Shown piece by piece: positions 12,703-51,575 of a stretch of DNA of 64,000 nt. The notes under the pieces are model-generated. The model ran no database searches, was not told where the DNA came from, and worked only from the letters and a program-made list of their open reading frames with translations. The stretch lies in sequence record OQ703618.1, one strand, 5' to 3'. The position numbers and the translations under genes are program-made. Every line of letters begins with the position of its first letter. Position 1 is the first letter of the stretch. This DNA comes from Escherichia phage GADS24.

Positions 12703-13803
12703 TTACGCTGTGAAGATTTTATCCCACATCGCAACAACTGCATCTCGGTTATACTTCTTCCATACTGCTTCAGCGCGTTTAACTCGAGCTTCGTATGTGT
12801 CAGTGAATTCTAATACAGCTTTTGTGTAAAGCGCAACTACTTCTTTCTTAGGAGTAGAGGAATCAATTTCTACACGCACAGTATCTGGGTCGTATTCGAA
12901 TGTCGCATGAGGATAATCCTTAAAAACTAACTGGATTACAGGGACACCTTTAGAGATGGCTTCAATAGAACTATTCTCTACTGTACCTGTGTCAGGACAC
13001 GTATTAATAAGTGCTTTAGCTGTTTTAAGACGTTCCATGATTTCACTGTGTGGAGCATCAATAATAACAGGATATTTAGCTGGTGGTGCCCATTTACTAG
13101 GACAGTATCCTACACCATTTTCGCCTAGTGCTTTAATCGCTTCAAGAGCAACATCAGTACGACGCATTTTAGTGTCATAACGTTGTGCACTAATAATCAA
13201 ATCAGTTGCCGGGAGAACTTCTGGTTTTTCAGTCAAACAAATAACCGGATAATCTTCGGCTTCAAACAACGGATTTGCTCGCCAATAATCATAATCAATT
13301 TTGTCAGTCAGACCTGAAGTCATATAACAATATTTGCGTTCAAATTCACGGAAGGCTTTAGTAGGAGCATAACTCTTACCACCATTCTTATGAATTTGAA
13401 TAGTCTGGTCCCAAATTTGAACAATGCCACGAGATACCGGTTCAAATGGTGTTGCCATAAAATTCTTATGAACTTTAGAGAGACCTGCGTCTTTAATTGC
13501 CTGAACGGTTAGTTTAGTCGGTTCCATAGTAACAACAAAATCGTATTCATGTATGCCGGCTAGTTCGACAATCTTACGAGCCATAGTATAACTCATACCT
13601 AGACTGAATTTAGTCAGATGTCCAACAGGGTGGTGTGTAACTTTCCAGTCACCAAACGTGTCATTATCAAAGCCGATATAATCAATATCAGCACCGATGG
13701 ACACAAGATATTTCAACACATTTAAATGTACTGCTTCAAGACCACCTTGTACACGGTCAGGATTAAATGGGACTGCACGAGATGGGATAAACATAACTTT
13801 CAT
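12703..13803 (-). CDS. GT-B fold glycosyltransferase; candidate hmC-DNA sugar transferase (arabinosyltransferase-like)
   Basis: 366 aa; C-terminal GT4-like E-x7-E motif (VENSSIEAISKGVPVI); lies between rIIA.1 and gene 39 where T4 has gene 60; no alpha/beta-gt elsewhere in the window. Confidence 0.75.
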   Translation of the reverse strand: MKVMFIPSRAVPFNPDRVQGGLEAVHLNVLKYLVSIGADIDYIGFDNDTFGDWKVTHHPVGHLTKFSLGMSYTMARKIVELAGIHEYDFVVTMEPTKLTVQAIKDAGLSKVHKNFMATPFEPVSRGIVQIWDQTIQIHKNGGKSYAPTKAFREFERKYCYMTSGLTDKIDYDYWRANPLFEAEDYPVICLTEKPEVLPATDLIISAQRYDTKMRRTDVALEAIKALGENGVGYCPSKWAPPAKYPVIIDAPHSEIMERLKTAKALINTCPDTGTVENSSIEAISKGVPVIQLVFKDYPHATFEYDPDTVRVEIDSSTPKKEVVALYTKAVLEFTDTYEARVKRAEAVWKKYNRDAVVAMWDKIFTA

Positions 13804-26297: not shown

Positions 26298-27316
26298 ATC
26301 TTTGAATAACGAGATAATCTCATTTTAGCATGCAACCCACTTGAAATATTCTGTTTCATATATTCTAAAATTTCTTGTGGTGTTGCATTTTCTTTCATTA
26401 CCATATCATTCACGTCCTTTGATCTCCACGGAGCTCGGTCCCAGAACATGACACGTTCGCCTGCATCAACTAATCGCTTCATGCGAGCTATAGTGTCCGG
26501 ATGCCTAGGTTCATTATCCATTACCCATACCCGACGTTCTTTAAATGGTACCACATCTAAATCTATTGAGCCGCCTGTAATAGCGATTGCATTGGGTATG
26601 AATAAACTATCAATAGGGCCTTCCATTACCCAGACGTCTCCTTCCTTAACACGTTCAACACCATAAATTTTTGTTGCAGACTCAAACGCTTTAATAGTGA
26701 TATATTTCTGAGGAGCATCTTTACGAAGTGCACGTCCTTGGAATGACTCAGCCTTCCCATCTTTATTAAAAATAGGAATCACTAAACGTGGCTCGGGAAT
26801 CTCTTTCTTATACGTACCAGGTTGAATCTTGTTGACCAATTTAGGCCATTCTAATGTGAACCATAATCTGTTCCATGATTCTTTAGGAATACACCGAGAC
26901 TTAACATATTTCACAATAGGATGCTCTTCAGGCAGCTTGTCCAGACGAGAACAAGACGGCAAAGAATTTATAGTCTTTTTCTCCGGTTCTGGTTTATGTT
27001 CAGGAACCTTTTCAATCTTTGGTTCCATTCTAGCTTTTTCTTTACGAACTTCCATTAGATATTCGCGATAAAGCTCTTCATCATACTCTTTTAAGTATCC
27101 GGAAATTGTATTATGGTATTGACAATTATAGCAATGTACATTACCAGGAGTACCGCCATAATACCATCCGCGAGCTTTCATTGCATCTGTCTGGGAGTCG
27201 CCACAAACTGGACATCGAAATGTTAATTTAAATGTGCTTGAATTATTGATTTGTCTAAAACGAGGTAGGTGAGAAAACGCACGATAAGCAAATTCATTAT
27301 CTATCCATTCAGCCAT
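26294..27316 (-). CDS. 61: DNA primase gp61
   Basis: 340 aa; zinc-ribbon CPVCGDS..CYNCQYH and primase core; T4 order 56-61. Confidence 0.9.
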   Translation of the reverse strand: MAEWIDNEFAYRAFSHLPRFRQINNSSTFKLTFRCPVCGDSQTDAMKARGWYYGGTPGNVHCYNCQYHNTISGYLKEYDEELYREYLMEVRKEKARMEPKIEKVPEHKPEPEKKTINSLPSCSRLDKLPEEHPIVKYVKSRCIPKESWNRLWFTLEWPKLVNKIQPGTYKKEIPEPRLVIPIFNKDGKAESFQGRALRKDAPQKYITIKAFESATKIYGVERVKEGDVWVMEGPIDSLFIPNAIAITGGSIDLDVVPFKERRVWVMDNEPRHPDTIARMKRLVDAGERVMFWDRAPWRSKDVNDMVMKENATPQEILEYMKQNISSGLHAKMRLSRYSKI

Positions 27317-29050: not shown

Positions 29051-29299
29051 TTATTCTTTTTCGCGAATAATAATTACTTGTTGAGGCTGCTGAGCAGATT
29101 TCTTTTCGGCAACGATAGACCAAATTAAAGTTCCAATCCAACCAACCATCGTCCAGTTAAAGAGTAAAGATACAAAGAAGATTGCTGTTGTGCTTTTTGT
29201 GCCACGAATAAGTGCGATTACCCAAGGCAACATGTAAATGATGATTGAACCAATACCTGCGATTAAAACCGCTACTGAACTAGCTACGAATAATTCCAT
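29051..29299 (-). CDS. Small integral membrane protein (82 aa, 2-3 TM helices)
   Basis: Hydrophobic segments VASSVAVLIAGIGSIIIYMLPWVIALI and AIFFVSLLFNWTMVGWIGTLIWSIV. Confidence 0.5.
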   Translation of the reverse strand: MELFVASSVAVLIAGIGSIIIYMLPWVIALIRGTKSTTAIFFVSLLFNWTMVGWIGTLIWSIVAEKKSAQQPQQVIIIREKE

Positions 29300-32479: not shown

Positions 32480-32842
32480 TTAAAAGAATTTAAATTTTTT
32501 CTTGGTCCGTTCATTAAAAGCTTGTTGTACTTGCATTGTAACACATTTTTCAACATGTGGTGCAAGTTCTGCTTTTCTGTCCTGGTCAAGAACTGCAAAG
32601 TCCATTACGATTTTACCATCAACCCAGTCTAGTTTTGTAATATAGACTATATGATGAGAACCATCTTCAAGCGTAATCAGAATCTCTTGAATGACATTTT
32701 CCATTGCTGAACGGACGATTTTAAGAGATTCATTAAACACTCGTTCTTTGCGAATGTCTTCCCCTTCCGAAGAAGGGGATTCATCAACGATTTCTAGATT
32801 TAAATCATCGAGATTATTCATCGAAATCTTCCATTTCGTCAA
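32480..32842 (-). CDS. 40: gp40-like protein (head vertex assembly chaperone position)
   Basis: 120 aa; assignment by synteny between uvsX and 41. Confidence 0.5.
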   Translation of the reverse strand: MTKWKISMNNLDDLNLEIVDESPSSEGEDIRKERVFNESLKIVRSAMENVIQEILITLEDGSHHIVYITKLDWVDGKIVMDFAVLDQDRKAELAPHVEKCVTMQVQQAFNERTKKKFKFF

Positions 32843-33986
32843 GGTCGTTTTCTATATCTGCTGCAGAAGGAGCATCAGAAGTTTTAACCGGAACTTTAGT
32901 TGTTGCTTTGCAATTAATAAGGTCATTAACAGCGTCATCAACTTCTTTAATAGAAGAGATAGCACCTAGTTTATATTTAGTTTCAATTGCATCTCGGAAA
33001 GGTTTGTGTTTAAACAATGGTCCCCAGAATTCTACACAATCAGTAGCTTTAGCACGCCATGATTTTTCTTCACGAATCATTTCACCTGTTTCTTCGTCAA
33101 GGAATTCACGAGCATACCAACCAGCTTTAGGCTTAACCACAAAACCGATTTCAGTTGCCATTTCTAACAAGCCGCTGAATGGGTCAATACCGCCATCAAA
33201 ATTAACCGTGATTGGGAAAGTAGATTTCTCTTTAACTGTACGAGATTTTTCTGCTTTCAACGTGAAGTCATAACCGGTCAATTCTGTACCTTCTTTAACC
33301 TGACGTTTAGAGATAAAGAATACAGTGTTAGCAGAGTAAAGAATACCTGTACCACCACCCATAATCTCTTTAGGATATAGACCGCCGATTTCCATTGCTG
33401 TATGGTTGATTGCAACACACGGAATATCTTTAATAGTCAGATAAGGAGTCACAATGCGGAACAGAGATTTAAGTGCCTTAGCACGAGACATATCACCTAC
33501 AACTTTCTCGTTCAACGCATCTTCGGTTTCTTTCTTAGATGCAGTATTACCGATTGAATCGATAAAGATAATAACTTTATCGCCGCGTTCAATCGCGTCA
33601 AGCTGATTAGTCATATCAACTTTAAGTTGTTCTACAGATTGAATCGGAGTATGAACTACACGGTCCAAATCAACACCCATTGAACGGAAGTAAGATTCTG
33701 AAGCACCGAATTCTGAGTCATAAAACAAACAGATTGCATCTTTATATTTCTTCATATATGCTGCAACCATGGTCAGTCCAAACAACGTTTTAAAGTGTTT
33801 AGAAGGAGCAGCAAAAATAGTTAAGCCTGATTGCAACCCAGCATTCAGTGCACCACCTAATGCAATATTCAACATCGGAATACGAGTAGGGACTTCATCA
33901 CGATTATTAAACAGCTTAGACTTAGTCAAGTCTGCAGTCATTTTAGAAGTAGAAGCTTTAATCAGACGAGATTTTAAATCAGACAT
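32814..33986 (-). CDS. uvsX: UvsX recombinase (RecA-like)
   Basis: 390 aa; RecA core; N-terminus MSDLKSRLIKASTSKMTA resembles recalled T4 UvsX. Confidence 0.9.
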   Translation of the reverse strand: MSDLKSRLIKASTSKMTADLTKSKLFNNRDEVPTRIPMLNIALGGALNAGLQSGLTIFAAPSKHFKTLFGLTMVAAYMKKYKDAICLFYDSEFGASESYFRSMGVDLDRVVHTPIQSVEQLKVDMTNQLDAIERGDKVIIFIDSIGNTASKKETEDALNEKVVGDMSRAKALKSLFRIVTPYLTIKDIPCVAINHTAMEIGGLYPKEIMGGGTGILYSANTVFFISKRQVKEGTELTGYDFTLKAEKSRTVKEKSTFPITVNFDGGIDPFSGLLEMATEIGFVVKPKAGWYAREFLDEETGEMIREEKSWRAKATDCVEFWGPLFKHKPFRDAIETKYKLGAISSIKEVDDAVNDLINCKATTKVPVKTSDAPSAADIENDLDEMEDFDE

Positions 33987-34085: not shown

Positions 34086-34634
34086 TTAACGAGCCCATTT
34101 GATAATTTCTGTAATCAAATTATTACGTTCGCTTGCATTAAATCCTATAACTTTGTTAGCACCATCATGATTAAGTAATTGATATGTTTGGATTTTGTTA
34201 TGAATTGCAAACTCTTCAAAATGTGAAATGACTGTATTAAAACCGAATGAAGACAAAGTAATAAGGTCGTCTTCAAAACTTTCAGTCATTTCGTTACGTG
34301 TTAAAATAATTGTGAACACATCATGGTTTTGGCAAAGACGAACATAATCCTGTTCATAAACATCAAGAACCGAGTCCGCATCTTGTCGAATACGTCCATA
34401 AACCCAGTTACTAATATATCCACGGTCTAACAGATAAATCTTAGTAGGGTCTAAATAATTCAACATCGTTTCGAAACAGCCAACTTCATTTCGAGACTTA
34501 ACATCAAAACGTCCATCAACTGTTCGTTTAGGGAAATCAATTTTTACATATCTTTCACTAATTTCCATTATGTCATTAATGAAAGTTGTTTTACCAGCAT
34601 TATCCGGGCCATCTACTAAAATAATTTTAGCCAT
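34086..34634 (-). CDS. P-loop nucleotide/nucleoside kinase-like protein
   Basis: 182 aa; Walker A VDGPDNAGKTT and LLDRGYIS (DR motif) as in dNMP/thymidylate-type kinases; first gene of the modification cluster. Confidence 0.6.
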   Translation of the reverse strand: MAKIILVDGPDNAGKTTFINDIMEISERYVKIDFPKRTVDGRFDVKSRNEVGCFETMLNYLDPTKIYLLDRGYISNWVYGRIRQDADSVLDVYEQDYVRLCQNHDVFTIILTRNEMTESFEDDLITLSSFGFNTVISHFEEFAIHNKIQTYQLLNHDGANKVIGFNASERNNLITEIIKWAR

Positions 34635-34635: not shown

Positions 34636-35535
34636 TTATTCCTCGATTACGACATCTTCGTATTTAGGTATATTATACGGTGAAGAAATTAAAGCATTAA
34701 AGTAGATGAACTCGCCAAGACCTGGATGGAATACTTCTTCAGGATTTTCGAAATATTGAATCTTCGGCCGTCCTTTAAGAATTTGATAGTACTCAGTTTT
34801 AGTTGGTTTAAAAATTCGAATCAGCGCTTCTTCAGGATACTTATTTCTATCGAAGCTATTATTTGGATCGGTTACATAAAGCGGTTGACCTAATTGAATT
34901 GCACATTCAACCACTTGTTCAAAACGATAGCACGGGTCACTAATTCGAAATGGATGAAAAATACCATCTAGATGAATAGGAGCCAAATCACCTACAAAAC
35001 GCTGCATGATGGAAGGACGTATAACTTTCTGGGTTACGATAATCTTATTACCATCTGCACCAGCGTTAACCAGCACTTCCTTTTGACGTTCATTCAACAC
35101 AGTAGTTTGAAGTGAACGATTAACCGACAACATGTCGGTTTTTAAGAATTCGTCAATATAAAAACGTGGTTTATTAGGGTCTGCAGTGATATTGAAATTG
35201 AATTCTACATCAAAAGCTCCGTCATATCCAGTGATATCTGTTATTAGAAAATCACAATCATAATAAGCAATTAATGAATCAACCACAAATTCATTTTCAG
35301 ACCAGAAATATTTACGAGTGTTATACGCGTTATCTTTATACCATAACGGAACAAACTTAAATTCTGGGAAAAGACGTTCACATTCTTTAATATCAGATGC
35401 ATTACGTGGATATGTAATAACATCACCCGGATTAGCACGGTGCAAATGAAGTTGGAAGTTGCCATCCTTAAGGATAGCATACTCTCCAGTTTCATAAGAC
35501 CGCATACTCAAGATAGGTACGCGGAAAATAGCCAT
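34636..35535 (-). CDS. Hypothetical protein (299 aa) in the modification cluster; possible transferase
   Basis: Immediately downstream of gene 42 with ATGA overlap; Asp-rich YYDCDF segment; no family recognised. Confidence 0.55.
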   Translation of the reverse strand: MAIFRVPILSMRSYETGEYAILKDGNFQLHLHRANPGDVITYPRNASDIKECERLFPEFKFVPLWYKDNAYNTRKYFWSENEFVVDSLIAYYDCDFLITDITGYDGAFDVEFNFNITADPNKPRFYIDEFLKTDMLSVNRSLQTTVLNERQKEVLVNAGADGNKIIVTQKVIRPSIMQRFVGDLAPIHLDGIFHPFRISDPCYRFEQVVECAIQLGQPLYVTDPNNSFDRNKYPEEALIRIFKPTKTEYYQILKGRPKIQYFENPEEVFHPGLGEFIYFNALISSPYNIPKYEDVVIEE

Positions 35536-36251
35536 TAGTCAAGGAATCCTTTAACATAATCAAAATCACGTTCAAACACATGGGCACTTACCATGGTATG
35601 AGTATAATCACCAACTTCTACACCACATTCGTTAGCGATATAATGAAGTAATTTTCCTTGGAGATAAAAATCCAACTGCATAACAACAGCACAGTTCTGA
35701 GAACGCATATGGCAGTGGGTATAAAGCTTACCATCACGAATATAATAAGTCACTGAGTCAGTACATGGATATTCAAGCGTTTCGTCCGAATCAAGCAAAG
35801 CCTGATCAGAACTTTCTAGAATTTGGAACACAACTCTTCGAGAGTTAGGTTTCTCTTTAAGTTCTTTGAGAAGAGCTGGTAACTGGGCCGCAATTCGTGG
35901 ACCATAGAAAGTGTTGAAGTTTGCAGGCAAAGCATCTGATTTCGGTTTAGAAATAAATTTAGCAACGTTAGGATATGCCTTAAATGCTTCTTCTGCATCA
36001 GTTCCGCCAGAAATCATAAATTTCCAGAAATCTTCGGCATATTCATAAGAGATGCGGTTAATACGTGGGTCGGTCATTTTGAATGATGATGGAGTGTCAA
36101 CAACTACTGTCATAGACCCAATTTCATTACAACGTCCAATACGAGAATCAGTTACGAATTCCGGGTTTTCTAAAATCTCACGATTGACTGCTTTAAATGC
36201 GGATTGAAAATCTGCGGCTTTAATATATTTCATTGTGTTATGTTTTCCCAT
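35535..36251 (-). CDS. 42: dCMP hydroxymethylase (thymidylate synthase family), gene 42
   Basis: 238 aa; TS-family core with nucleophile Cys in YPCTDS, RS dyad 20-21 residues later and Asp at the position of TS Asn177 (cytosine specificity). Confidence 0.75.
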   Translation of the reverse strand: MGKHNTMKYIKAADFQSAFKAVNREILENPEFVTDSRIGRCNEIGSMTVVVDTPSSFKMTDPRINRISYEYAEDFWKFMISGGTDAEEAFKAYPNVAKFISKPKSDALPANFNTFYGPRIAAQLPALLKELKEKPNSRRVVFQILESSDQALLDSDETLEYPCTDSVTYYIRDGKLYTHCHMRSQNCAVVMQLDFYLQGKLLHYIANECGVEVGDYTHTMVSAHVFERDFDYVKGFLD

Positions 36252-36292: not shown

Positions 36293-36532
36293 TTATTTGA
36301 ATTTCTTAGCGATGTTGATATAACGTAGAGCTTCGGCATCGATACTTCTAAGGACACTATGAAGGAATGCGTCGGCATAGTATTCTAGTTGAACAGGTTC
36401 TTTAATCGCTTTAGCCGCTTTAGTTTCAAACAGGCCCATAAGGGCCTTTTTAAGAATTTGTTCGTTGCTGGTAATTTTAATAGTCAAAATCTCTTCATTA
36501 AGTTGGTGGTTAAAAGTTTTTCTAGAAATCAT
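36293..36532 (-). CDS. Hypothetical protein (79 aa)
   Basis: Small ORF between the U32-like gene and gene 42. Confidence 0.45.
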   Translation of the reverse strand: MISRKTFNHQLNEEILTIKITSNEQILKKALMGLFETKAAKAIKEPVQLEYYADAFLHSVLRSIDAEALRYINIAKKFK

Positions 36533-37689
36533 TCCGGGTACCTCAAAGCGTCGTCAGAGTTAGTTATATCAATAATAGATATAGAATTTTCTGATAACCC
36601 ATTTTTAGATAACTGACGTTTATAATATCTTTCACAATATGTACACGTCGTCCCGCAGATTTCATTAGCACAATCGAAATCTGGATGTCTGAACCACCTT
36701 TTTTCTAAAAAGCCGTCTAACAAAGAGGTTTCAATATTTACCGTATGTGAAAACTCGGTCTCATTTTCAAGAGTGAAAATGGTCTCTAAAGGCTTCCACA
36801 GTTCTAACAAATTACCTTCAAACTTTTCAGAAGCGTATGCTTCAAGAACTTTCAAAATGTAGTCTGTGCTACCTGTACGTCCTGAAACTTTGAATTGAGT
36901 GATACCAATATCATTATAAAGTTTCAAATCTTGTGGACGAACAAAACGAGTTCTCAACCAGTTAAATGGGTCTGTATCACGAGCTTTAATACAGTGCTGC
37001 ATAGGATATCCATTTAAGGATTTAGCATCATCAGCTGTAACATCAGTACTATGGAAAATATAGCAAGAGTCACGATAGCTACAATGTGTTGTATACCCTT
37101 TACCAGCATTAGAACAGAACTCATTTACAAGAACTTCAAATATTATATTGTTCTTATTGCAAAACTCTGCTGCACGCTTCAGGAAAGAAACTGAACGGTT
37201 CTTATGAATTCCACAGCAGACCTTTTTGATATTATACTGGTCATGTAAGTATTTGATTTGAGTTACAGCATCGACATGTAAAATTGTTGAAACTTCAATC
37301 TCAATGTCTTTATTGACTTCACGAACAATTTCCATAACAACAGGGTTAGCGATAGTAATACGCCATACGCCTATTGACCAAAGATACTGAACATAATCCT
37401 GAATAGCTTTCTTCTTCCACTCAACTAGTTCTCTTTTTGAACCGGGATTTATCGTGTTGAGTGTATAGTTAAAGCAAATACCTAATTCGTTACAACGTTT
37501 AACGTAATCTTCTAACATCTTTTTGTCAACGTCAGGAAGCCTAAAATCAGGTCTGGCTGCTACAAAAGCCATTTCTCTTGTAGAGCCGTATACTTCGTTT
37601 ATCAAGCTATTAGGATAAGTTTTATTGAGCTCTACGATTTTATCAAGAAGAGCTAAATCAAAATTCGTTCCGATTTTAAAAGTATTCAT
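36529..37689 (-). CDS. Cys-rich TIM-barrel-like enzyme, peptidase-U32-like (putative Fe-S protein), about 386 aa
   Basis: N-terminal pattern resembling U32 proteins (..EVYGS..ARPDF..ICFNYTLNT), central EVLVNEFCSNAGKGYTTHCSY, C-terminal CGTTCTYC (CxxxCxxC); trimmed to first ATG. Confidence 0.55.
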   Translation of the reverse strand: MNTFKIGTNFDLALLDKIVELNKTYPNSLINEVYGSTREMAFVAARPDFRLPDVDKKMLEDYVKRCNELGICFNYTLNTINPGSKRELVEWKKKAIQDYVQYLWSIGVWRITIANPVVMEIVREVNKDIEIEVSTILHVDAVTQIKYLHDQYNIKKVCCGIHKNRSVSFLKRAAEFCNKNNIIFEVLVNEFCSNAGKGYTTHCSYRDSCYIFHSTDVTADDAKSLNGYPMQHCIKARDTDPFNWLRTRFVRPQDLKLYNDIGITQFKVSGRTGSTDYILKVLEAYASEKFEGNLLELWKPLETIFTLENETEFSHTVNIETSLLDGFLEKRWFRHPDFDCANEICGTTCTYCERYYKRQLSKNGLSENSISIIDITNSDDALRYPE

Positions 37690-37748
37690 TTTTTTTTTGC
37701 ATCTCACGTTAATTGACGCGATGGTTTTTGCAGGTCTTACTTAAATTA

Positions 37749-38150
37749 TTATAGATTCGGTTTATATGATTTAAATGTTTCGAATTCGCCTTTATTCATA
37801 AGAGCTTTGAATTCGTCGGGACGCATAGCTTTGTCGTCGATAATCCAATCATATACTGGTTTATGTGTTAGCAAATTATGGTACTTCAAGCCAATGTTTG
37901 CCAAGTTCTGAATAAGACTTGGGAGAATGTCAATTGCTATACGACCAGGACCTACTGACTTCATACCGCGAGCAGTGTAAAGCGTTATGGTATGCCCTGC
38001 ATCATACAGGGCATTAATGGCAGACACCATTTCGACGTCTGGTTTGAAGTTCACGTAATCACGATTGTTATTCCACTCTGTTATACAATCATCGACATCA
38101 AAACAAAGATTAAGCATGTTTTCTACACGGTGCATTAGATTCGTTCCCAT
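37749..38150 (-). CDS. HAD-superfamily phosphatase (KdsC-like sugar-phosphate phosphatase)
   Basis: 133 aa; motif I FDVDDCIT (DxDx[T/V]) near the N-terminus; overlaps the upstream gene. Confidence 0.65.
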   Translation of the reverse strand: MGTNLMHRVENMLNLCFDVDDCITEWNNNRDYVNFKPDVEMVSAINALYDAGHTITLYTARGMKSVGPGRIAIDILPSLIQNLANIGLKYHNLLTHKPVYDWIIDDKAMRPDEFKALMNKGEFETFKSYKPNL

Positions 38151-39820
38151 TGATGAGTGATATCGCCACCGATTGGACGATAGGAAACACCAGTTTCTTT
38201 ATCAGTTAGTACCCATTTACCAGGATTTTTTGTAATCAGAGTAGCCGTTACAGGTTCTGCCATGTCATAACTAATAGAGCCGTCCTGAAGTACACGGCCC
38301 ATGTTACGTAATTGCTTAGTCAGAAGTTCCATACCTTTATAATATGCGGCTACCGCTTTAAGTGGATTATTCTTGAAATAACCACCTAATGCAATCCAGA
38401 TAATTGCTACAGCCAAATGATGATACTCGTTAAATGAACTCATCTTTCCATATTTGTAAACTAATGGATTGATGTTAATAGTCACATTACAAGTTGTTTC
38501 ATCAATAGTAAACTGTCCCCAGGTCGGATTAGCGTTGAATTCATCATAACCTGAAACAGCATAAAGCACTTTAGCTTCATCGTACAATTTTGGCCCGTAA
38601 ATCTTGGTTTCGCCAAAATATCCACGAGGGTCGATAAACTTGACTTCGCCGTTATCAGTAATCATAGTATTACTGAAGTTCGGGTCACCGTGAATAACAG
38701 AGTACTGTCCCTGAGAACGGTTATGATAACGAATAAGGTGTTCTAAAGCTTGTTTCAGCATTGGCTTCAGACGCCCAATCTTAGTGTAGTTCACATGTGT
38801 GATTTTACCAAATGAATCAATCAATGGTTGAATACTTTCACAACGATCAATAACTTTCGTATAGAATTCTTTAGTGAAATCACGACGAACAGTTTCAGGA
38901 CTTACAAAATAAGTGTCTGTGCTGAATTTCAGTGCATCTAAAATTGCATCAACAATTTGTGGACGAGCAAGACTCGATTTAGATTTAATATATTCAAATG
39001 CCGGCTTACCTTTAATGCGTTCCATTTCAAAGTTATTTTCATTAACAGAAACTAACTGAGGAACTGAATCTGATTTCACTTTAAGATACCATGAAATCTC
39101 ATCTTTCTGAAGAGCTCGTCCCTGTTCGGTTAATGCGAATTTAGTTACAGTTTCTTCACCAATTTCAACTGCATTAAAACTACGATTAAGTTCACGAACT
39201 TCATGAGCTTTTTCAAGTTTAGGCATATCACCTAAATCAATTAGATTCATAAGCTCTGATTTATTGAATGCGCCGCTGTAAAGGAATTCTACGAAATCAC
39301 GTCCTTTGCAGTATTCATGAATTTCCTCATCAGTAGAACCCATATAGAATTCCCAGTCTTTGAATTGATAAATTCCTACAACATTACCACCTGTTGAACC
39401 TACGTTAGTGATATTTTCACCGTCGAAATTATATCGACATTCGTCACCCTTAACATAGATTGCGTTAACATTCCAAGACCATGAACCAAAATCAGGAATA
39501 ATATCACACCAGTTAACAATTACATTATGGCCGTCTAAATCTTTGTGTAATTTAGCAAGAGCATAAGCGGAACCATATGCTTCATCAACTGTACGAATAG
39601 TCACATTGAACCCTTCTTGCTCACAATAAGCTCGAACAGTTTCAGCAAATTTTGAATGAACTACTACAATAATTTCATCTGCGCCAAGGTCAGAATAAAT
39701 TGTATACAAATTGCTCAGAATAGTGTCTTGTTTATAGTTAACAAGCACCTTAGGAATATGATGCGTTATTGGATACAAACGAGTTGCCAGTCCAGCACCA
39801 AGAATAACAGCTTTTTTCAT
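38135..39820 (-). CDS. Bifunctional sugar-1-phosphate nucleotidyltransferase (N-terminal) / sugar kinase (C-terminal)
   Basis: 561 aa; N-terminal ILGAGLATRLYPIT..PKVLV (RmlA/GlmU-type G-x-G-x-R); C-terminal HGDPNFSNTMI..FIDPRGYFG resembling APH/choline-kinase catalytic loop. Confidence 0.7.
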   Translation of the reverse strand: MKKAVILGAGLATRLYPITHHIPKVLVNYKQDTILSNLYTIYSDLGADEIIVVVHSKFAETVRAYCEQEGFNVTIRTVDEAYGSAYALAKLHKDLDGHNVIVNWCDIIPDFGSWSWNVNAIYVKGDECRYNFDGENITNVGSTGGNVVGIYQFKDWEFYMGSTDEEIHEYCKGRDFVEFLYSGAFNKSELMNLIDLGDMPKLEKAHEVRELNRSFNAVEIGEETVTKFALTEQGRALQKDEISWYLKVKSDSVPQLVSVNENNFEMERIKGKPAFEYIKSKSSLARPQIVDAILDALKFSTDTYFVSPETVRRDFTKEFYTKVIDRCESIQPLIDSFGKITHVNYTKIGRLKPMLKQALEHLIRYHNRSQGQYSVIHGDPNFSNTMITDNGEVKFIDPRGYFGETKIYGPKLYDEAKVLYAVSGYDEFNANPTWGQFTIDETTCNVTININPLVYKYGKMSSFNEYHHLAVAIIWIALGGYFKNNPLKAVAAYYKGMELLTKQLRNMGRVLQDGSISYDMAEPVTATLITKNPGKWVLTDKETGVSYRPIGGDITHQWERI

Positions 39821-39861
39821 GTTGTGGTCCTCATTGGTAAGTAGGAGTATTGTACACTATT

Positions 39862-40005
39862 CTAGTTAAAGCATTCATACTTTGCTTGTAGTCCAATCAT
39901 AATCCATCCAATTACAAGTGTTGGAATCATTACTGGAGCCGTTAAGCTCCAGTAGATAGTCATGACAAGCATCAATAGTAAAAGTCCTATTGTTATTGCT
40001 TTCAT
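39862..40005 (-). CDS. Small hydrophobic peptide (47 aa)
   Basis: ATG overlaps the stop of the isomerase gene (ATGA); translation MKAITIGLLLLMLVMTIYWSLTAPVMIPTLVIGWIMIGL; below ORF-track cutoff. Confidence 0.3.
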   Translation of the reverse strand: MKAITIGLLLLMLVMTIYWSLTAPVMIPTLVIGWIMIGLQAKYECFN

Positions 40006-40637
40006 TGTTCGCCTCGTAACATGGCACCTAGTGCACCACCAGGGTGGAACTTAAGGAAGTCATTAGAGGTAAATCCACGTTCAGACGAAAGGTTGATAGC
40101 GAACGTATCGATAAGCGCTAACAACAATGTAGTAGACATTGTCGGAGCTAAAGAGTTCTCGTCAACTTCTACCGCGATGCCTGTACAGAAAGAGTAATCA
40201 AAAAGGGCTTCATTTTCTTGCGGAATGTCAGGGTTACAATGTAACAGAATCTGTTTAACCTGAGGACGAATCATACGAAGATGTTTAGCAACACCTATCA
40301 TTTCTTCGGTTTTACCAGAACGACTAATATGAATCAACACATCATTAGGCGCAATGAATCCTGCATCACCGTGAGAATAATGCCCAGTGTTCAAGTACAT
40401 ACTCGGGATACCGAGTGAAGCAAATGTCTCAGAAGCTTTAGTTGCAATATTAGCATTCTTACCAACACCTGTAATAATTACTCGGCTTTCATAATTACTA
40501 AGTCCTGGGCGTCGAAGAGTTTCTAGAATAGCATTATAACGAGCAGGGTTTTGACTAATTACTTTGGCCATAGTAGCCAAAGAAGAAGCTTGTTTTACGA
40601 TTGCGTCAATAGCGATAGTAATAGGAGTAGTTTTCAT
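40002..40637 (-). CDS. SIS-domain sugar-phosphate isomerase (KdsD/GutQ-like arabinose-5-phosphate isomerase)
   Basis: 211 aa; SIS motifs ITGVGKNANIA and SRSGKTEE, C-terminal FHPGGALG as in API enzymes. Confidence 0.75.
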   Translation of the reverse strand: MKTTPITIAIDAIVKQASSLATMAKVISQNPARYNAILETLRRPGLSNYESRVIITGVGKNANIATKASETFASLGIPSMYLNTGHYSHGDAGFIAPNDVLIHISRSGKTEEMIGVAKHLRMIRPQVKQILLHCNPDIPQENEALFDYSFCTGIAVEVDENSLAPTMSTTLLLALIDTFAINLSSERGFTSNDFLKFHPGGALGAMLRGEQ

Positions 40638-46845: not shown

Positions 46846-48534
46846 TTATGAAACAGTCATTACCGTAAATCGTCCAACTTTGCTCATCTGAAGATGTTGT
46901 CCATAACGTTGAGGGTCATGGTCTCGATGAGAGATAATGAACACGTTAGTATTTTGTAAACTTCCAAGAATGGTATCTATAGCCTTAACAGCCTCAGAAT
47001 CAACAGCACCATCAAAAACCTCATCAAGAATCAGAGTGTTGATTTTAACACCAGAGACCTTTTCAGCAATATCTCGCCATGTAAACAACAACGCGATATC
47101 GATACGTGCTTTTTCACCTTGACTAAATGAAGCATAACTAAAATCTTCACGACCACGTGATTTTATAGATTCATTGAATTCTTCGTCAATAGAAAACACG
47201 TAATCAGCTTCCATAATTTTAAGATAATGATTAATCTGTTTGTTGAACAGAGGCACATATTTTTTAATGATAGCACCTTTAATACCAGAATCTTTTAACA
47301 TATCTGTGATAATACCACGATGGTATTTTTCAAGAACGATATCTGATTTTGTTTTAATGATTTTATCAAGTTCTTTTTGAAGCAAAGCTATCTCATCGGC
47401 ATGGTCGATAAATTCAGCCGAGGCTTGTTCTATTGCAGCTTTAACTTTCTTAGCTTTATCAATAGTGGCAATCATTGCTTGTTTCTTGGTACGAATATCA
47501 GATGCAAGGTCCTGTTTAGTCTTAACATTAGCTCTATATTCGTCCACTAGGACACTCAGATTATCTCTGTGACATGTAAGTTGCTCGAATGAGTGATTAC
47601 ATTCGTGAAGCTTATCGGTAATCTTAGAGACAATAGGATCACCCTGGTGCAACTGTGATGCACAAGTAGGACATGTGCCACCATCATGATACATCTTAAT
47701 AACTTTGTTATATGAGTCGATTTTAGATTTAATCAAGAATGCTTCTTGTCCGATCTTGTTGAATGCCTCAGTAGGGTCTTCGTCAAGAACGATATTAAGT
47801 AGACGCTCGTTAGCTTCTTCAATTTCTGCTTTTAATGAACGAGCTTCTTTGGCTAGGTCGTCATACATATTCTGTAGACGCGCTACATTATCACCAGATA
47901 ATTTCTTTTGACGTTCGATATTCTCGTTATAAATCTTAATTTGTTGGATAACACCATCTTTCTTGGCATCGAGAACTTGTCCCTGGGAATTAAGTTCTCG
48001 AACTTGAGACTTATTGATTTTATCCATTTCAGCGAGTGTGCCGACTTCTAAAAGGTCTTCGACAAGTTTTCTACGAGCAGGGGTGCTAAGAGCCATGAAA
48101 GGGGTATACCCTGCCGTCCCAAGCACAACGATTTGTTTAAAAGACGCGTATGACATTCCGATGCTACGTTCAAATTCTTCTTGGAAGTCACGACTGCTGG
48201 CAGATTCATCAAGACGAACACCGTCAACGGAGATTTCGAAAATATTGGGTTTTTGGCCGCGTTTAATGAAGTATTTTTTATCATCGAATTCCATCCAAAG
48301 CTCAACTAAGAGCTCTTTCTTGTTCGTGCTATTAATGATTTGCCCTTTCTTAACATCACGAAATGGTTTACCGAAAAGTCCGAAAGTAATGGCTTCTAAC
48401 ATCGTAGATTTACCACCGCCATTTTTACCAGTGATTAATGTCTTTTGGACTTTATCTAATTGGATATCAATAGGATTCCCGCCTACCGACATGATATTTT
48501 GATAACGAACACGATTTAATTTAAATGATTTCAT
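46846..48534 (-). CDS. 46: Recombination endonuclease subunit gp46 (SbcC/Rad50-like ATPase)
   Basis: 562 aa; Walker A GKNGGGKST, coiled-coil middle with CPTC zinc hook, Walker B LILDE. Confidence 0.9.
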   Translation of the reverse strand: MKSFKLNRVRYQNIMSVGGNPIDIQLDKVQKTLITGKNGGGKSTMLEAITFGLFGKPFRDVKKGQIINSTNKKELLVELWMEFDDKKYFIKRGQKPNIFEISVDGVRLDESASSRDFQEEFERSIGMSYASFKQIVVLGTAGYTPFMALSTPARRKLVEDLLEVGTLAEMDKINKSQVRELNSQGQVLDAKKDGVIQQIKIYNENIERQKKLSGDNVARLQNMYDDLAKEARSLKAEIEEANERLLNIVLDEDPTEAFNKIGQEAFLIKSKIDSYNKVIKMYHDGGTCPTCASQLHQGDPIVSKITDKLHECNHSFEQLTCHRDNLSVLVDEYRANVKTKQDLASDIRTKKQAMIATIDKAKKVKAAIEQASAEFIDHADEIALLQKELDKIIKTKSDIVLEKYHRGIITDMLKDSGIKGAIIKKYVPLFNKQINHYLKIMEADYVFSIDEEFNESIKSRGREDFSYASFSQGEKARIDIALLFTWRDIAEKVSGVKINTLILDEVFDGAVDSEAVKAIDTILGSLQNTNVFIISHRDHDPQRYGQHLQMSKVGRFTVMTVS

Positions 48535-48785: not shown

Positions 48786-49014
48786 TACACGCTTCAGCCA
48801 TTTTAAGAATAGAGCCAGGAGTATCGTTGTCCATTATATTAAAGCTAAATTCAATAGCCCAGTCAGTGCAGACATGAACTGCTTTAACTTCATTGCCTTC
48901 AACGCGTAATGGCTCAATCCAATACTTGATAGTGTTCTCGAATCCATCATCATCTTTAACGTCCATTTCAACTTCAAGCCTGAGTCCAGCATTGTTAAAT
49001 TCATCTAAAGTCAT
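48757..49014 (-). CDS. Hypothetical protein (85 aa)
   Basis: ORF with ATGA overlap to gp47. Confidence 0.5.
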   Translation of the reverse strand: MTLDEFNNAGLRLEVEMDVKDDDGFENTIKYWIEPLRVEGNEVKAVHVCTDWAIEFSFNIMDNDTPGSILKMAEACIEDAYNDED

Positions 49015-50030
49015 TGTGTTGCCTCAACATAAAGTTCGTTGGAATATTTGACCAGCGCTTCTCTGTCTTCATCTGAGATATCTGGAATCGCGTCAATATA
49101 TTCTTTAATGATATCTTGAAGTGATTTAATCTCGATTTCCTGGTCGTCATCAGATTCAACACTGTTATCAACTTTAGAAACCATACGAAGAGAGTGAACT
49201 ACTTTTTCAAGTTCAGATTCAAACTTAGTCAACTCTGAATCAATTTCTGATACTATAACACGTACGGCTAGATTAGTATAATCAGAATAATTGATTTTGC
49301 CTTTAAACGGATAAGTGATTCGTCGGTGCCATGTTGTTTCATTAGGAATAAATTCCATACGTTCAACATCAGTGTCAAATACCCAGAATCCTCGAGGGTC
49401 GTTCTCATCACCTGCAGTAAGGGTCCATGGTGTCCCAATATATTTGACGTTAGCAGCTTCAGAGATTGTGTGGAAGTGGCCAGAACAGACTTGTTTATAG
49501 GTCTTTAAGAAATCAGGTTCAAGCCCATGAGACTTCATTCCTTTATAGAAATAAAAGCCATTCAGTTCCCAGTGCCCAACACAATACTCTGCGGAAGAAG
49601 TCTTGATGTGCTCTAAGATTTCACCTGTATTTTCTTCACACATCCATGGAACGATATCAATCAGACATCCATCAAAATCTACAGTAGTTGGATGCTCATA
49701 AATAGTAAAGTTTTCAAATTGAGTTAACAATTCAGAAACAGTGTTAGGTGTTATTGTATTCTTAAACGCCATGTCATGGTTTCCTACCGTGACATGAACG
49801 TGAATGCCTGCTTTAGAAATCATATCAACGATTTCACGATTGAATTCCATCGTACGATGTGTTATTGCTTTACGGACGTCAAACCAATCACCGCACTGAA
49901 TCCAAGTTTTAATCCCATGTTTCTTAGAGTATTCAATTGCTTGACGAATACCATCACGTTGAATGTCTTGAACCCATGGGTCGTCTTGTTTGACTCCGAT
50001 ATGGAAGTCGCCTAAGTACAAAATTTTCAT
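49011..50030 (-). CDS. 47: Recombination nuclease gp47 (SbcD/Mre11-like phosphoesterase)
   Basis: 339 aa; calcineurin-like motifs DFH, GDWFD, GNHD. Confidence 0.9.
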   Translation of the reverse strand: MKILYLGDFHIGVKQDDPWVQDIQRDGIRQAIEYSKKHGIKTWIQCGDWFDVRKAITHRTMEFNREIVDMISKAGIHVHVTVGNHDMAFKNTITPNTVSELLTQFENFTIYEHPTTVDFDGCLIDIVPWMCEENTGEILEHIKTSSAEYCVGHWELNGFYFYKGMKSHGLEPDFLKTYKQVCSGHFHTISEAANVKYIGTPWTLTAGDENDPRGFWVFDTDVERMEFIPNETTWHRRITYPFKGKINYSDYTNLAVRVIVSEIDSELTKFESELEKVVHSLRMVSKVDNSVESDDDQEIEIKSLQDIIKEYIDAIPDISDEDREALVKYSNELYVEATQ

Positions 50031-50070
50031 ATTATTTCCTCATTAGTTAATTCATTCTATCATCCGTTTA

Positions 50071-50101
50071 TAAAGCAAAAAAGGAACTCCGAAGAGTTCC
50101 T
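50071..50101 (-). terminator. Rho-independent terminator upstream of gene 47
   Basis: GGAACUC-UUCG-GAGUUCC followed by TTTTTTGCTTT. Confidence 0.5.
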
Positions 50102-50271
50102 ATCCACATAGTACACCGTACAGAGGCTCATTTGAACTTTTAAATCGAATGGGCTTGTATGTAATAGTTCCTTCGGCTTTAGCTTTATCATAAGACTCTT
50201 TAAAACGTCTCATTCTTTCTGCTTTGCCTTTACGGATTTTATCGAAATTTTCAGAAGTCGGGATGTTCGTC
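50098..50271 (-). CDS. Small basic protein (57 aa)
   Basis: ATG-initiated ORF MTNIPTSENFDKIRKGKAERMRRFKESYDKAKAEG, flanked by a terminator; below ORF-track cutoff. Confidence 0.3.
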
Positions 50272-50312
50272 ATGCATAAGCACCTCTCAGAAAATACCTA
50301 AATCGATTTCTC

Positions 50313-50534
50313 TCATCGTTTCCACCATTTCTTAACTTGAAATGAATCAACCCACACGAGTTGTTTTGGGTCTGCCTTTACAATAGGCGGACAAATTTCT
50401 GTAATAGAACCGTCGTGATATTCCTTTTCAGAGATTTTAACACAAAGAGGACCTCCCAATTTAAGGGTGAACCCTGCATTCAGCTTCAGACGTTTAAACT
50501 TTGTTTGAACTAGCGCCATTAATGATGTCCTCAA
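50313..50534 (-). CDS. Hypothetical protein (73 aa or shorter)
   Basis: Minus-strand ORF in the 47-55 interval. Confidence 0.4.
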   Translation of the reverse strand: MRTSLMALVQTKFKRLKLNAGFTLKLGGPLCVKISEKEYHDGSITEICPPIVKADPKQLVWVDSFQVKKWWKR

Positions 50535-50817
50535 TAGCCTGACGAGTAGTAATCCACTGGATTTTAATTAACTTGTCATTGTATGGTTGTCGTAGAATAT
50601 CCCGAGATTTCTTAATAGCATATTCGTAAGCTTCGAAGTTATTTTGAATTGCTGCTTCTTGAGCATGAGCATAAAGACGGTTTAGTTCAAAACGATTCTT
50701 TTTAAGAATCTTTTCGGATTTTTTACGTGCTTCAGCTTCATTTTTCTTTTGGATTTCTTGTAGCATTTTAGCTACTGCATCTTCTGCTTCTTTATTTTCA
50801 ATAATCTCGGTAGTCAT
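50494..50817 (-). CDS. Hypothetical protein (107 aa)
   Basis: Minus-strand ORF in the 47-55 interval. Confidence 0.5.
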   Translation of the reverse strand: MTTEIIENKEAEDAVAKMLQEIQKKNEAEARKKSEKILKKNRFELNRLYAHAQEAAIQNNFEAYEYAIKKSRDILRQPYNDKLIKIQWITTRQAIEDIINGASSNKV

Positions 50818-50818
50818 A

Positions 50819-51031
50819 TTATCTCATTAAATTAAAATAAAAACGTCCATCCTCTTCAATACAGAACTCGTACTCAACCGGAGTCCCATTTATTGAAAAT
50901 GACACGTCATGTGGGTTCAAAGGGTCGATGTCAAAATTAATTTTAAATTCACGACCCAACAGTTTTACCAAATAAGGGATTGCTTCGTCAAAAGGTTCTT
51001 CTAAGTAGTTAGAGATGTCAATTGTCATCCT
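50819..51031 (-). CDS. Hypothetical protein (about 70 aa from internal Met)
   Basis: Track ORF overlaps gene 55 in another frame; trimmed to MRMTIDIS. Confidence 0.4.
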
Positions 51032-51575
51032 CATATAAAAAATCCAAACTAGGCGAATCGCTAACAACTTCCTTCTTTTCAGCCCCAGGAGCTTTATAAG
51101 CGGATTCTTCATAATGCGTCATTTTATCGTAGATGTCTTGAATAAACGTTTCATCTACCAACGCTACCATATCATCGTCATGACTGTCGTAGACATTATG
51201 AACGAAGTAACTATATTTCTTTGCAACTTCCTTACGTTCTTTTTTGATACGTTGGACAAAAGCATTAAAACAAGCTCGAGTTATGTATGCATGTGGGTTA
51301 TTGTACTTAGTTTCGTCGAAATTATGAAGTCCCTTAATAGAGGCTTCAATCCCATCTGCAATCATCTCTTGCTTCCAAGACTGGGTATATCCTGAAAAGT
51401 TGAAACGTTTGGACAGGCCTTCGGCGATAAGCATAATTGCTAAACCGATGGTATCATTCTGACGAATAATTTTGTTTGGGTCTTTATTATTTAAGAGCTC
51501 CTTTTTCCACTCGATTATAGCGGCGAGAAGCTCTTTATTATTCACATAGTTATTTTTAGGTTTTTGTTCAGTCAT
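51018..51575 (-). CDS. 55: Late-transcription sigma factor gp55
   Basis: 185 aa; [63 protein letters not shown] near-identical to recalled T4 gp55. Confidence 0.9.

What the first reader, a model, noticed from the sequence alone, without database searches (positions are those of the whole stretch)
50030..51018. No alpha-glucosyltransferase between genes 47 and 55
In T4 the alpha-gt gene lies between 47 and 55. Here the interval holds only four small ORFs (57-107 aa). Combined with the missing beta-gt near uvsX, the phage has lost or never had glucosylation, consistent with a different sugar pathway.
Basis: partly seen in the sequence, partly recalled or inferred. Interest (0 to 1): 0.45.

Follow-up and report, generated by a model that had tools for sequence, protein, structure and literature searches.

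The report
RB69-like phage lacks T4 glucosyltransferases
This stretch of an RB69-like (Mosigvirus) coliphage really has no alpha-glucosyltransferase gene between genes 47 and 55, because this group of phages decorates its cytosines with arabinose instead of glucose, which is already published.

Summary
On the minus strand, gene 47 (49011-50030) and gene 55 (51018-51575) enclose four small genes of 57, 68, 107 and 71 aa. These are orthologues of T4 a-gt.2, a-gt.3, a-gt.4 and a-gt.5, which T4 also has. What is missing relative to T4 is a 2.2-kb block: 47.1, a-gt and the homing endonuclease mobB. A 69-bp spacer sits in its place, holding a UUCG hairpin and a Mot-box middle-promoter-like site.

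The window is a Mosigvirus, 96% identical in DNA to RB69. T4 a-gt, T4 b-gt and T2-type ba-gt have no detectable homologue in the window or in the whole RB69 genome.

The window does carry the complete RB69-type arabosylation gene set at 94-100% protein identity. This includes a thymidylate-synthase-like 5-hydroxy-dCMP synthase, the enzymes that activate arabinose, and two GT-B-fold glycosyltransferases. One of these transferases sits where T4 has b-gt.

Comparison with five other genera favours loss of a-gt over "never had", though not decisively. Interest is low.

The parts
49011..50030 (-). Gene 47 (SbcD/Mre11-like recombination endonuclease subunit), the right-hand landmark of the interval
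   Evidence: 339-aa ORF. 75.8% aa identity to T4 gp47 over the full length. phrog_100, E = 5e-135.
50054..50077 (-). Mot-box middle-promoter-like site TGCTTTA-N11-TAGAAT just upstream of gene 47. Inferred from consensus only.
   Evidence: Sequence read directly. The pattern TGCTTNA-N11-13-TANNNT occurs 14 times in the window against 3.3 expected, and 0 of 100 shuffles reach 14. Homologous modules lie upstream of 47.1 or 47 in T4, RB32, JS98, Roth79 and CC31.
50082..50101 (-). UUCG-tetraloop hairpin followed by a T run, immediately after the a-gt.2 stop codon (terminator-like or RNA-stabilising)
   Evidence: Found by the terminator scan, 8 pairs plus TTTTTT. RNA fold -13.9 kcal/mol, z = -3.86.
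50100..50273 (-). a-gt.2 orthologue (57 aa, DUF5486), function unknown
   Evidence: 75.9% identity to T4 a-gt.2, E = 3e-24. PF17588, E = 4.5e-28. Annotated a-gt.2 in RB69 and mar005P1.
50313..50519 (-). a-gt.3 orthologue (68 aa from the ATG), function unknown
   Evidence: 70.8% identity to T4 a-gt.3, E = 1.7e-29. phrog_1648, E = 2e-34. No Pfam match.
50494..50817 (-). a-gt.4 orthologue (107 aa, DUF2654), function unknown
   Evidence: 57.7% identity to T4 a-gt.4, E = 3.5e-32. PF10849, E = 1.6e-27.
50819..51034 (-). a-gt.5 orthologue (71 aa, DUF5491), function unknown. Its start overlaps the end of gene 55 by 17 nt, as in T4.
   Evidence: 46.6% identity to T4 a-gt.5, E = 1e-14. PF17595, E = 5.8e-13.
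51018..51575 (-). Gene 55 (late sigma factor), the left-hand landmark of the interval
   Evidence: 185-aa ORF, 90.7% identity to T4 gp55. phrog_234, E = 3.7e-68.
12703..13803 (-). RB69 ORF003c orthologue: GT-B (GT4-like) glycosyltransferase, the putative second DNA arabinosyltransferase, lying between rIIA.1 and gene 39
   Evidence: 98.9% identity to RB69p003. phmmer E = 3.6e-250 to PDB 9IQZ/9IR0, 'phage HY126 glycosyltransferase'. Role as given in PMC6024577 and PMC13326640.
25493..26011 (-). Gene 56 dCTPase, which removes dCTP from the precursor pool
   Evidence: 71.7% identity to T4 gp56 and 97.1% to RB69p028.
32814..33986 (-). uvsX, landmark for the slot where T4 has segA and b-gt
   Evidence: 67.7% identity to T4 UvsX. 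T4 gene order.
34086..34634 (-). RB69p045 orthologue, thymidylate-kinase-like nucleotide kinase
   Evidence: 98.9% identity to RB69p045. phrog_761, thymidylate kinase.
34636..35535 (-). RB69p046:47 orthologue as one intact 299-aa ORF: GT-B-fold glycosyltransferase, the putative first DNA arabinosyltransferase. It occupies the position that b-gt has in T4 (between uvsX and the 42-like gene).
35535..36251 (-). RB69 gp48 orthologue: thymidylate-synthase-family 5-hydroxy-dCMP synthase, in the place of T4 gene 42
   Evidence: 99.6% identity to RB69p048 but only 24.8% to T4 gp42. PF00303. Activity shown for RB69 gp48 in PMC13326640.
36529..37707 (-). RB69p050 orthologue, U32-peptidase-like protein whose role in the pathway is unknown
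   Evidence: 99.5% identity to RB69p050. PF01136.
37749..38150 (-). RB69p051 orthologue, HAD-like sugar phosphatase (AfhF-like)
   Evidence: 99.2% identity to RB69p051. phrog_1238. Role as given in PMC13326640.
38135..39820 (-). RB69p052:53 orthologue as one intact 561-aa ORF: nucleotidyltransferase plus kinase, making UDP-arabinose (AfhE-like)
   Evidence: Single ORF. 98.6-99.4% identity to RB69p052 and p053. PF00483 at the N-terminus and weak kinase-family hits at the C-terminus.
40002..40637 (-). RB69p055 orthologue, arabinose-5-phosphate isomerase
   Evidence: 98.1% identity to RB69p055. phrog_5670, E = 2.6e-116.

Best explanation
The window comes from a Mosigvirus, an RB69-like T-even coliphage. 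This genus does not glucosylate hydroxymethylcytosine.

Shown from the sequence: the a-gt slot next to gene 47 is empty. a-gt.2 is followed by a hairpin, a Mot-box middle-promoter-like site, a ribosome-binding site and then gene 47. The b-gt slot next to uvsX is filled by a nucleotide kinase and a different GT-B glycosyltransferase.

Inferred by near-identity to RB69 and HY126 enzymes that have been characterised:
1. The phage converts dCMP to 5-hydroxy-dCMP with a thymidylate-synthase-like enzyme.
2. It builds UDP-arabinose with an arabinose-5-phosphate isomerase, a bifunctional kinase/nucleotidyltransferase and a HAD phosphatase.
3. It transfers one or two arabinoses onto 5-hydroxycytosine in DNA with two GT-B transferases.

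The four small genes in the interval (a-gt.2 to a-gt.5) are conserved early or middle genes of unknown function. They are present whether or not a-gt is present, so they are not part of any sugar pathway replacement.

The absence of a-gt is most likely a loss. The gene probably left as a cassette bounded by two similar hairpin-plus-middle-promoter modules, leaving one module behind. This last step is inference.
For: Identity of the phage:
- 98.4-98.8% nt identity to many Mosigvirus records.
- 96.2% mean nt identity to RB69 over about 62 kb; the 47-55 interval is 98.3% identical with no gaps.

Gene order:
- T4 has 47/47.1/a-gt/mobB/a-gt.2-.5/55. RB69 and the window have 47/a-gt.2-.5/55.

Absence of the glucosyltransferases:
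- tblastn of T4 a-gt and b-gt against the window gives only E > 1.
- tblastn, phmmer and the a-gt profile HMM find nothing significant in the window or the whole RB69 genome, and the same holds for RB32 ba-gt.
- In the phage collection a-gt matches 657 records. The identity bands are accounted for by Tequatrovirus (90% or more), Klebsiella and Raoultella phages (about 66%) and a few others. None of the 60 sampled rows is a Mosigvirus, and the same is true for b-gt.

Presence of the arabinose pathway:
- All RB69 pathway genes are present at 94-100% aa identity.
- Both ORF pairs that are split in RB69 are intact here.
- The ORF003c orthologue matches the HY126 glycosyltransferase structure 9IQZ at E = 3.6e-250.

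Chemistry and enzymology come from the literature: PMC6024577, PMC13326640 and PMC13390438, plus He 2026 and Mahler 2025 as cited in PMC13326640.

Junction anatomy.

Loss versus never had:
- a-gt sits in the identical slot in T4, RB32, Klebsiella phage Roth79 and Erwinia phage Cronus, flanked on both sides by hairpin-plus-promoter modules.
- Over gp46+gp47+gp55 the window is the closest of all to T4 (81%, against 67-72% for the others).
- a-gt divergence (66% and 57%) tracks the divergence of the flanking genes.
Against: - Only 64 kb of this phage was available. Absence elsewhere in its own genome is inferred from RB69 and from counts in the collection, not shown.
- No chemistry exists for this particular isolate.
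- The loss scenario rests on three flanking proteins, not a genome phylogeny.
- Presence of a-gt is patchy. JS98 and CC31 also lack it, and CC31 is the closest to the a-gt-positive Roth79. Several events are needed under any scenario.
- The promoter and terminator are consensus matches only.
- The apparent left/right chimerism of the junction relative to the two T4 modules rests on about 25 bases.
Confidence: 0.9

Rival explanations
1. The lineage never had a-gt. The empty slot is ancestral, and a-gt entered Tequatrovirus, the Klebsiella-phage group and Roskildevirus independently at a recombination-prone hairpin/promoter site.
For: The empty slot is also found in JS98 (Dhakavirus) and CC31 (Karamvirus). 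The window's junction is nearly identical to that of JS98. The slot is bounded by PmSL-like motifs that are proposed to mediate cassette shuffling (PMC4122927, PMC2839356). In T4 the cassette is accompanied by a homing endonuclease, mobB.
Against: a-gt occupies exactly the same slot in three genera. Its divergence (66% and 57%) parallels that of the flanking core genes (68% and 67%). This fits vertical descent with repeated loss better than three independent insertions at one site. T4, the window's closest relative among those compared, has a-gt.
Confidence: 0.3
2. A glucosyltransferase (a-gt, b-gt or ba-gt) is encoded elsewhere in the part of this phage's genome that lies outside the window.
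For: Only 64 kb of about 168 kb was examined directly. T-even genomes are mosaic.
Against: The whole RB69 genome has none. The collection-wide a-gt and b-gt hits are accounted for by other genera. Published analyses of RB69 and Mosigvirus NP found none (PMC6024577, PMC13326640, PMC13390438). The window lacks a T4-type dCMP hydroxymethylase, which makes the substrate for those enzymes; the nearest relative is 25% identical and makes 5-hydroxy-dCMP.
Confidence: 0.03
3. The four small ORFs, or the 69-bp spacer, are decayed remnants of a-gt.
Against: Each small ORF has a full-length orthologue in T4 that coexists with a-gt (47-76% identity), and three belong to their own Pfam DUF families. The spacer is fully accounted for by a hairpin, a Mot-box promoter-like site and a ribosome-binding site, and it is homologous to the JS98 spacer. 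The a-gt profile finds nothing there.
Confidence: 0.01

Closest known systems
Phage RB69 (Mosigvirus RB69) 47-55 interval and arabinosyl-5-hydroxycytosine pathway
   Same: Identical gene order 47 / a-gt.2 / a-gt.3 / a-gt.4 / a-gt.5 / 55. The interval is 98.3% identical in DNA with no gaps. All pathway genes are 94-100% identical. The two glycosyltransferases sit in the same two places.
   Different: This is a different isolate (96.2% mean DNA identity, and the tail-fibre end at window 1-1798 has no RB69 match). The RB69 reference splits p046/047 and p052/053, whereas here each pair is one intact ORF.
Phage T4 47-55 interval (47, 47.1, a-gt, mobB, a-gt.2-.5, 55)
   Same: The flanking genes and the four small genes are orthologous and in the same order, including the 17-nt overlap of a-gt.5 with gene 55. 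A hairpin-plus-Mot-box module follows a-gt.2 in both.
   Different: T4 has an extra ~2.2 kb holding mobB, a-gt, a second hairpin/promoter module and 47.1. T4 glucosylates hmC. The window has no hmC synthase orthologue and no glucosyltransferase.
E. coli phage HY126 Afh pathway (He et al. 2026, cited in PMC13326640; PDB 9IQZ/9IR0)
   Same: The window's 366-aa transferase matches the HY126 glycosyltransferase chain at E = 3.6e-250. According to PMC13326640 the kinase/uridylyltransferase and the phosphatase correspond to AfhE and AfhF.
   Different: The HY126 genome was not examined here. The correspondence of the other genes is taken from the literature.
PeSL/PmSL promoter-stem-loop cassettes of T4-like phages (PMC2839356, PMC4122927)
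   Same: A stem-loop directly followed by a promoter (here of the Mot-box type, as in the 'PmSL' motifs), located at the boundary of a gene that is present in some relatives and absent in others.
   Different: Those motifs were defined in RB49/phi1, PST/T4 and nt-1/KVP40. No recombination event at this site has been observed. The motif here is a consensus match only.

Membership tests
T4-type DNA alpha-glucosyltransferase (a-gt) | A protein homologous in sequence to T4 a-gt (400 aa) | tested here: not met
   tblastn best E = 2.8 in the window. A profile HMM built from four a-gt sequences gives a best E of 0.38 over six-frame ORFs of the window and the whole RB69 genome.
T4-type DNA alpha-glucosyltransferase (a-gt) | A gene in the slot between a-gt.2 and 47(.1) | tested here: not met
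   The slot is a 69-bp spacer (50031-50099) holding only a hairpin, a promoter-like site and a ribosome-binding site.
T4-type DNA beta-glucosyltransferase (b-gt) and T2/T6 ba-gt | A protein homologous in sequence to T4 b-gt or RB32/T2 ba-gt, located between uvsX and gene 42 | tested here: not met
T4-type hmC pathway | A dCMP hydroxymethylase (gp42) orthologue | tested here: not met
   The only relative is 24.8% identical. It is 99.6% identical to RB69 gp48, which makes 5-hydroxy-dCMP (PMC13326640).
Mosigvirus/RB69-type arabinosyl-5-hydroxycytosine pathway | A ThyA-family 5-hydroxy-dCMP synthase | tested here: met
   Window 35535-36251 is 99.6% identical to RB69p048 and matches PF00303. The activity itself was not tested here.
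Mosigvirus/RB69-type arabinosyl-5-hydroxycytosine pathway | Arabinose activation genes: arabinose-5-phosphate isomerase, bifunctional kinase/nucleotidyltransferase, HAD phosphatase | tested here: met
   40002-40637, 38135-39820 and 37749-38150 are 98-99% identical to RB69p055, p052:53 and p051.
Mosigvirus/RB69-type arabinosyl-5-hydroxycytosine pathway | Two GT-B DNA glycosyltransferases, one in the cluster and one between rIIA and gene 39 | tested here: met
Mosigvirus/RB69-type arabinosyl-5-hydroxycytosine pathway | Arabinosylated 5-hydroxycytosine present in virion DNA | not testable with these tools
   This needs LC-MS/NMR of this isolate's DNA. It has been shown for RB69 and for phage NP (PMC13326640, PMC13390438).
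a-gt.2 / a-gt.3 / a-gt.4 / a-gt.5 small-protein families | Full-length sequence match to the T4 proteins and their Pfam/PHROG families | tested here: met
   76%, 71%, 58% and 47% identity to the T4 proteins. DUF5486, DUF2654 and DUF5491 all score above the gathering cut-off. phrog_2140, 1648, 951 and 1169.
PmSL/PeSL regulatory cassette | A stem-loop immediately followed by a promoter, at an indel boundary between related phages | tested here: met
   Hairpin of -13.9 kcal/mol, z = -3.86. The Mot-box pattern is enriched 14 against 3.3 expected. The indel boundary is shown. Promoter activity and any role in recombination were not tested.

The most novel reading that the evidence does not exclude
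The single hairpin-plus-Mot-box module at 50054-50101 is the scar of a clean excision of the a-gt cassette. The excision would have occurred by recombination between the two similar modules that flank a-gt in Tequatrovirus, Klebsiella phage Roth79 and Erwinia phage Cronus. On this reading the Mosigvirus ancestor discarded a-gt when it switched from glucosyl-hmC to arabinosyl-5-hydroxycytosine. The 47-a-gt.2 junction would then be a datable marker of a change in base-modification chemistry within the T-even phages.
Probability: 0.3. Interest if true: 0.3.

Novelty: already known. Interest (0 to 1): 0.1.

Why it matters
The sugar on T-even DNA decides which restriction, CRISPR and type IV (modification-dependent) defences a phage escapes or triggers. 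It also decides whether the phage can recombine with T4. Recognising from sequence alone that a phage belongs to the arabosyl-5-hydroxycytosine group rather than the glucosyl-hmC group is useful for choosing phages for therapy and for cloning or sequencing their DNA. For this window the answer repeats what is published for RB69, HY126, Bas46/47 and NP, so it adds annotation, not discovery. The only small addition is the junction anatomy, which gives a testable route by which the a-gt cassette is gained or lost.

Tried and rejected
- Pfam gave no hit for either glycosyltransferase or for the kinase.
- A literature search for a-gt.2 to a-gt.5 found one genome-comparison paper and no functional data.
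- The idea that the small ORFs or the spacer are a-gt remnants was rejected. They have T4 orthologues that coexist with a-gt, and the spacer is fully explained by regulatory motifs.
- Simple parsimony on a-gt presence was attempted with six genomes. It favours loss but is not decisive because JS98 and CC31 also lack a-gt.
- The sigma-70 promoter scan was not above chance in this region (6 found against 5.5 expected) and was not used.
- I did not fetch a second complete Mosigvirus genome such as a20. RB69 and the collection counts were judged sufficient.
Full report
**What is at the coordinates**

All genes in this part of the window run on the minus strand. The ORF at 49011-50030 (339 aa) is gene 47: 75.8% identical to T4 gp47, phrog_100. 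The ORF at 51018-51575 (185 aa) is gene 55, the late sigma factor: 90.7% identical to T4 gp55. The finding's coordinates are therefore exactly the start of gene 47 and the stop of gene 55.

Four ORFs lie between them:

| Coordinates | Length | Gene | Identity to T4 | Family |
|---|---|---|---|---|
| 50100-50273 | 57 aa | a-gt.2 | 76% | DUF5486 |
| 50313-50519 | 68 aa (73 from an upstream TTG) | a-gt.3 | 71% | phrog_1648 |
| 50494-50817 | 107 aa | a-gt.4 | 58% | DUF2654 |
| 50819-51034 | 71 aa (97 from the furthest ATG, inside gene 55) | a-gt.5 | 47% | DUF5491 |

Each is a full-length orthologue of the named T4 gene. They are annotated the same way in RB69 and in vB_Eco_mar005P1.

**What T4 really has there**

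The T4 record shows 47 / 47.1 / a-gt / mobB / a-gt.2 / a-gt.3 / a-gt.4 / a-gt.5 / 55. RB32 has the same order without mobB. The four small genes are shared with T4. What the window lacks is a block of about 2.2 kb holding 47.1, a-gt and mobB.

In its place is a 69-bp spacer (50031-50099). Read on the coding strand, the a-gt.2 stop codon is followed by:
- a hairpin, GGAACTC-TTCG-GAGTTCC, and a T run. The terminator scan finds it. The RNA fold is -13.9 kcal/mol with z = -3.86.
- then TGCTTTA-N11-TAGAAT, which fits the T4 Mot-box middle-promoter consensus.
- then GAGGA and the ATG of gene 47.

The Mot-box pattern occurs 14 times in the window against 3.3 expected by chance. The promoter and terminator functions are inferred from consensus only.

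**Which phage this is**

The region is 98.4-98.8% identical to about 150 records of the genus Mosigvirus. The first 25 kb gives the same picture. Against RB69 itself the window aligns over about 62 kb at 96.2% mean identity, corresponding to RB69 159177-167560 followed by 1-54147. The 47-55 interval is 98.3% identical without gaps.

- T4 a-gt and b-gt give only noise against the window (best E 2.8 and 1.8).
- I assembled the complete RB69 genome from five fetched pieces (167,560 bases). I searched it together with the window using T4 a-gt, three further a-gt proteins (RB32, Klebsiella phage Roth79, Erwinia phage Cronus), T4 b-gt and the RB32 (T2-type) ba-gt.
- tblastn, phmmer and a profile HMM of the four a-gt sequences against all six-frame ORFs found nothing significant. 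The best profile E-value was 0.38.
- Across the phage collection a-gt matches 657 records. Their identity bands are accounted for by Tequatrovirus (90% or more), Klebsiella and Raoultella phages (about 66%) and a few others. b-gt matches 126 records in other genera. No Mosigvirus appears in the sampled rows.
- The absence in this isolate's unsampled ~105 kb remains an inference from its relatives.

**What replaces glucosylation**

The window carries every gene of the RB69 cytosine-modification set at 94-100% protein identity:
- a dCTPase, gene 56 (25493-26011)
- a thymidylate-kinase-like protein (34086-34634)
- a 299-aa protein (34636-35535)
- a thymidylate-synthase-family enzyme (35535-36251)
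- a U32-like protein (36529-37707)
- a HAD-like phosphatase (37749-38150)
- a 561-aa nucleotidyltransferase-plus-kinase (38135-39820)
- an arabinose-5-phosphate isomerase (40002-40637)
- far away, between rIIA.1 and gene 39, a 366-aa protein (12703-13803)

The thymidylate-synthase-like enzyme is only 24.8% identical to T4 gp42. It is 99.6% identical to RB69 gp48, which was shown to make 5-hydroxy-dCMP rather than hydroxymethyl-dCMP (PMC13326640).

The 366-aa protein matches PDB 9IQZ/9IR0, 'phage HY126 glycosyltransferase', at E = 3.6e-250.

So the genome does contain two superfamily-level relatives of a-gt, but no orthologue. One of them sits in the very slot, between uvsX and the 42-like gene, where T4 has b-gt.

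**Literature**

- Thomas et al. 2018 (PMC6024577) reported that RB69 has no a-gt, b-gt or ba-gt homologue and that its DNA carries arabinose. They proposed ORF003c as the transferase, and ORF052/053 and ORF055 for sugar activation.
- The 2026 NAR paper (PMC13326640) corrected the chemistry to mono- and di-arabinosylated 5-hydroxycytosine. It showed the gp48 activity and stated that RB69 p046/047 and p052/053 are single genes split by sequencing errors. The window, where both are intact ORFs, agrees.
- The Durham Collection paper (PMC13390438) found the same modification in Mosigvirus NP and describes the same two transferase locations.
- He et al. 2026 and Mahler et al. 2025, cited in PMC13326640, cover HY126, Bas46 and Bas47.

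**Lost or never had?**

a-gt lies in exactly this slot in T4 and RB32, in Klebsiella phage Roth79 (66% identical to T4 a-gt) and in Erwinia phage Cronus (57%). In each case a UUCG or similar hairpin plus a promoter-like module lies on both sides. JS98 (Dhakavirus) lacks a-gt but keeps 47.1. CC31 (Karamvirus) lacks both.

Over gp46+gp47+gp55 the window is closest to T4 (81.4%), while all the other pairs are 66-73%. The divergence of a-gt follows that of the flanking genes. This pattern is explained more simply by an old a-gt that was lost several times than by three insertions at one site. However, it rests on three proteins and six genomes. I put loss at roughly 0.6-0.7 against never-had at about 0.3.

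The window's spacer is nearly the same as the JS98 spacer upstream of 47.1. Its left part resembles the T4 module that follows a-gt.2, and its right part resembles the T4 module that follows a-gt. This would fit excision by recombination between the two modules, the mechanism proposed for PeSL/PmSL motifs (PMC2839356, PMC4122927). That argument rests on about 25 bases and is only a lead.

**The four small genes**

No function is known for them. The only paper that mentions them is a genome comparison. They are kept in a-gt-positive and a-gt-negative phages alike. CC31 has a different ORF in place of a-gt.2, and the Roth79 and Cronus records leave their small ORFs unnamed. The 'a-gt.N' names reflect map position only, and the genes should not be linked to sugar metabolism.

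**Verdict**

The window is a new isolate of a well-described genus with the published gene content. Interest is low (0.1).

Noticed in passing
window 34636-35535 and 38135-39820: The RB69 reference genome splits these into p046/p047 and p052/p053. In the window each is one uninterrupted ORF (299 aa and 561 aa). This agrees with the published view that the RB69 splits are sequencing errors.
   Followed up: yes
window 25493-27300 (gene 56 to gene 61 region) and the whole window: No homologue of T4 dam, or of the homing endonucleases segA, segF and mobB, is found in the window or in the complete RB69 genome (tblastn, E < 0.01).
   Followed up: partly
window 29054-29299: The imm gene (64% identical to T4 Imm) lies near sp/61.4 rather than between genes 42 and 43 as in T4. 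In this phage the 42-43 interval is taken up by the arabinose gene cluster.
   Followed up: partly
window 1-1798: This is the only long stretch of the window with no blastn match to RB69. By position it lies in the distal tail-fibre gene 37, just upstream of gene 38, so host-range determinants differ from RB69.
   Followed up: no
window 50048-50056 (minus strand): The -10-like TAGAAT of the promoter-like site runs into ATG AAT TAA, a two-codon mini-ORF. It sits at the position where T4 has the start codon of 47.1 (TATAATG...). It may be a vestige of 47.1 or a coincidence.
   Followed up: no
window, 14 sites (e.g. 15686-15710, 34672-34696, 39849-39873, 47360-47384; mostly minus strand): The Mot-box middle-promoter consensus TGCTTNA-N11-13-TANNNT is about four-fold enriched (14 found against 3.3 expected). 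Several sites lie inside or beside the arabinose cluster, which suggests middle-mode expression of the modification genes.
   Followed up: partly
L013 (JS98) 3754-3975; L012 (CC31) 3185-3552: JS98 lacks a-gt but keeps 47.1 (78% identical to T4 47.1 by eye). CC31 lacks a-gt and 47.1 and has an unrelated ORF in place of a-gt.2. The slot next to gene 47 is a small hot spot of gene turnover across genera.
   Followed up: partly
one search hit list (P0006, P0015, P0020, P0023, P0028, P0032, P0034, P0036...): Homologues of the 299-aa cluster glycosyltransferase occur in T4-like phages of Edwardsiella, Yersinia, Acinetobacter, Providencia and Pseudomonas, and in many metagenome contigs (28-75% identity). 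The family has no Pfam model.
   Followed up: partly
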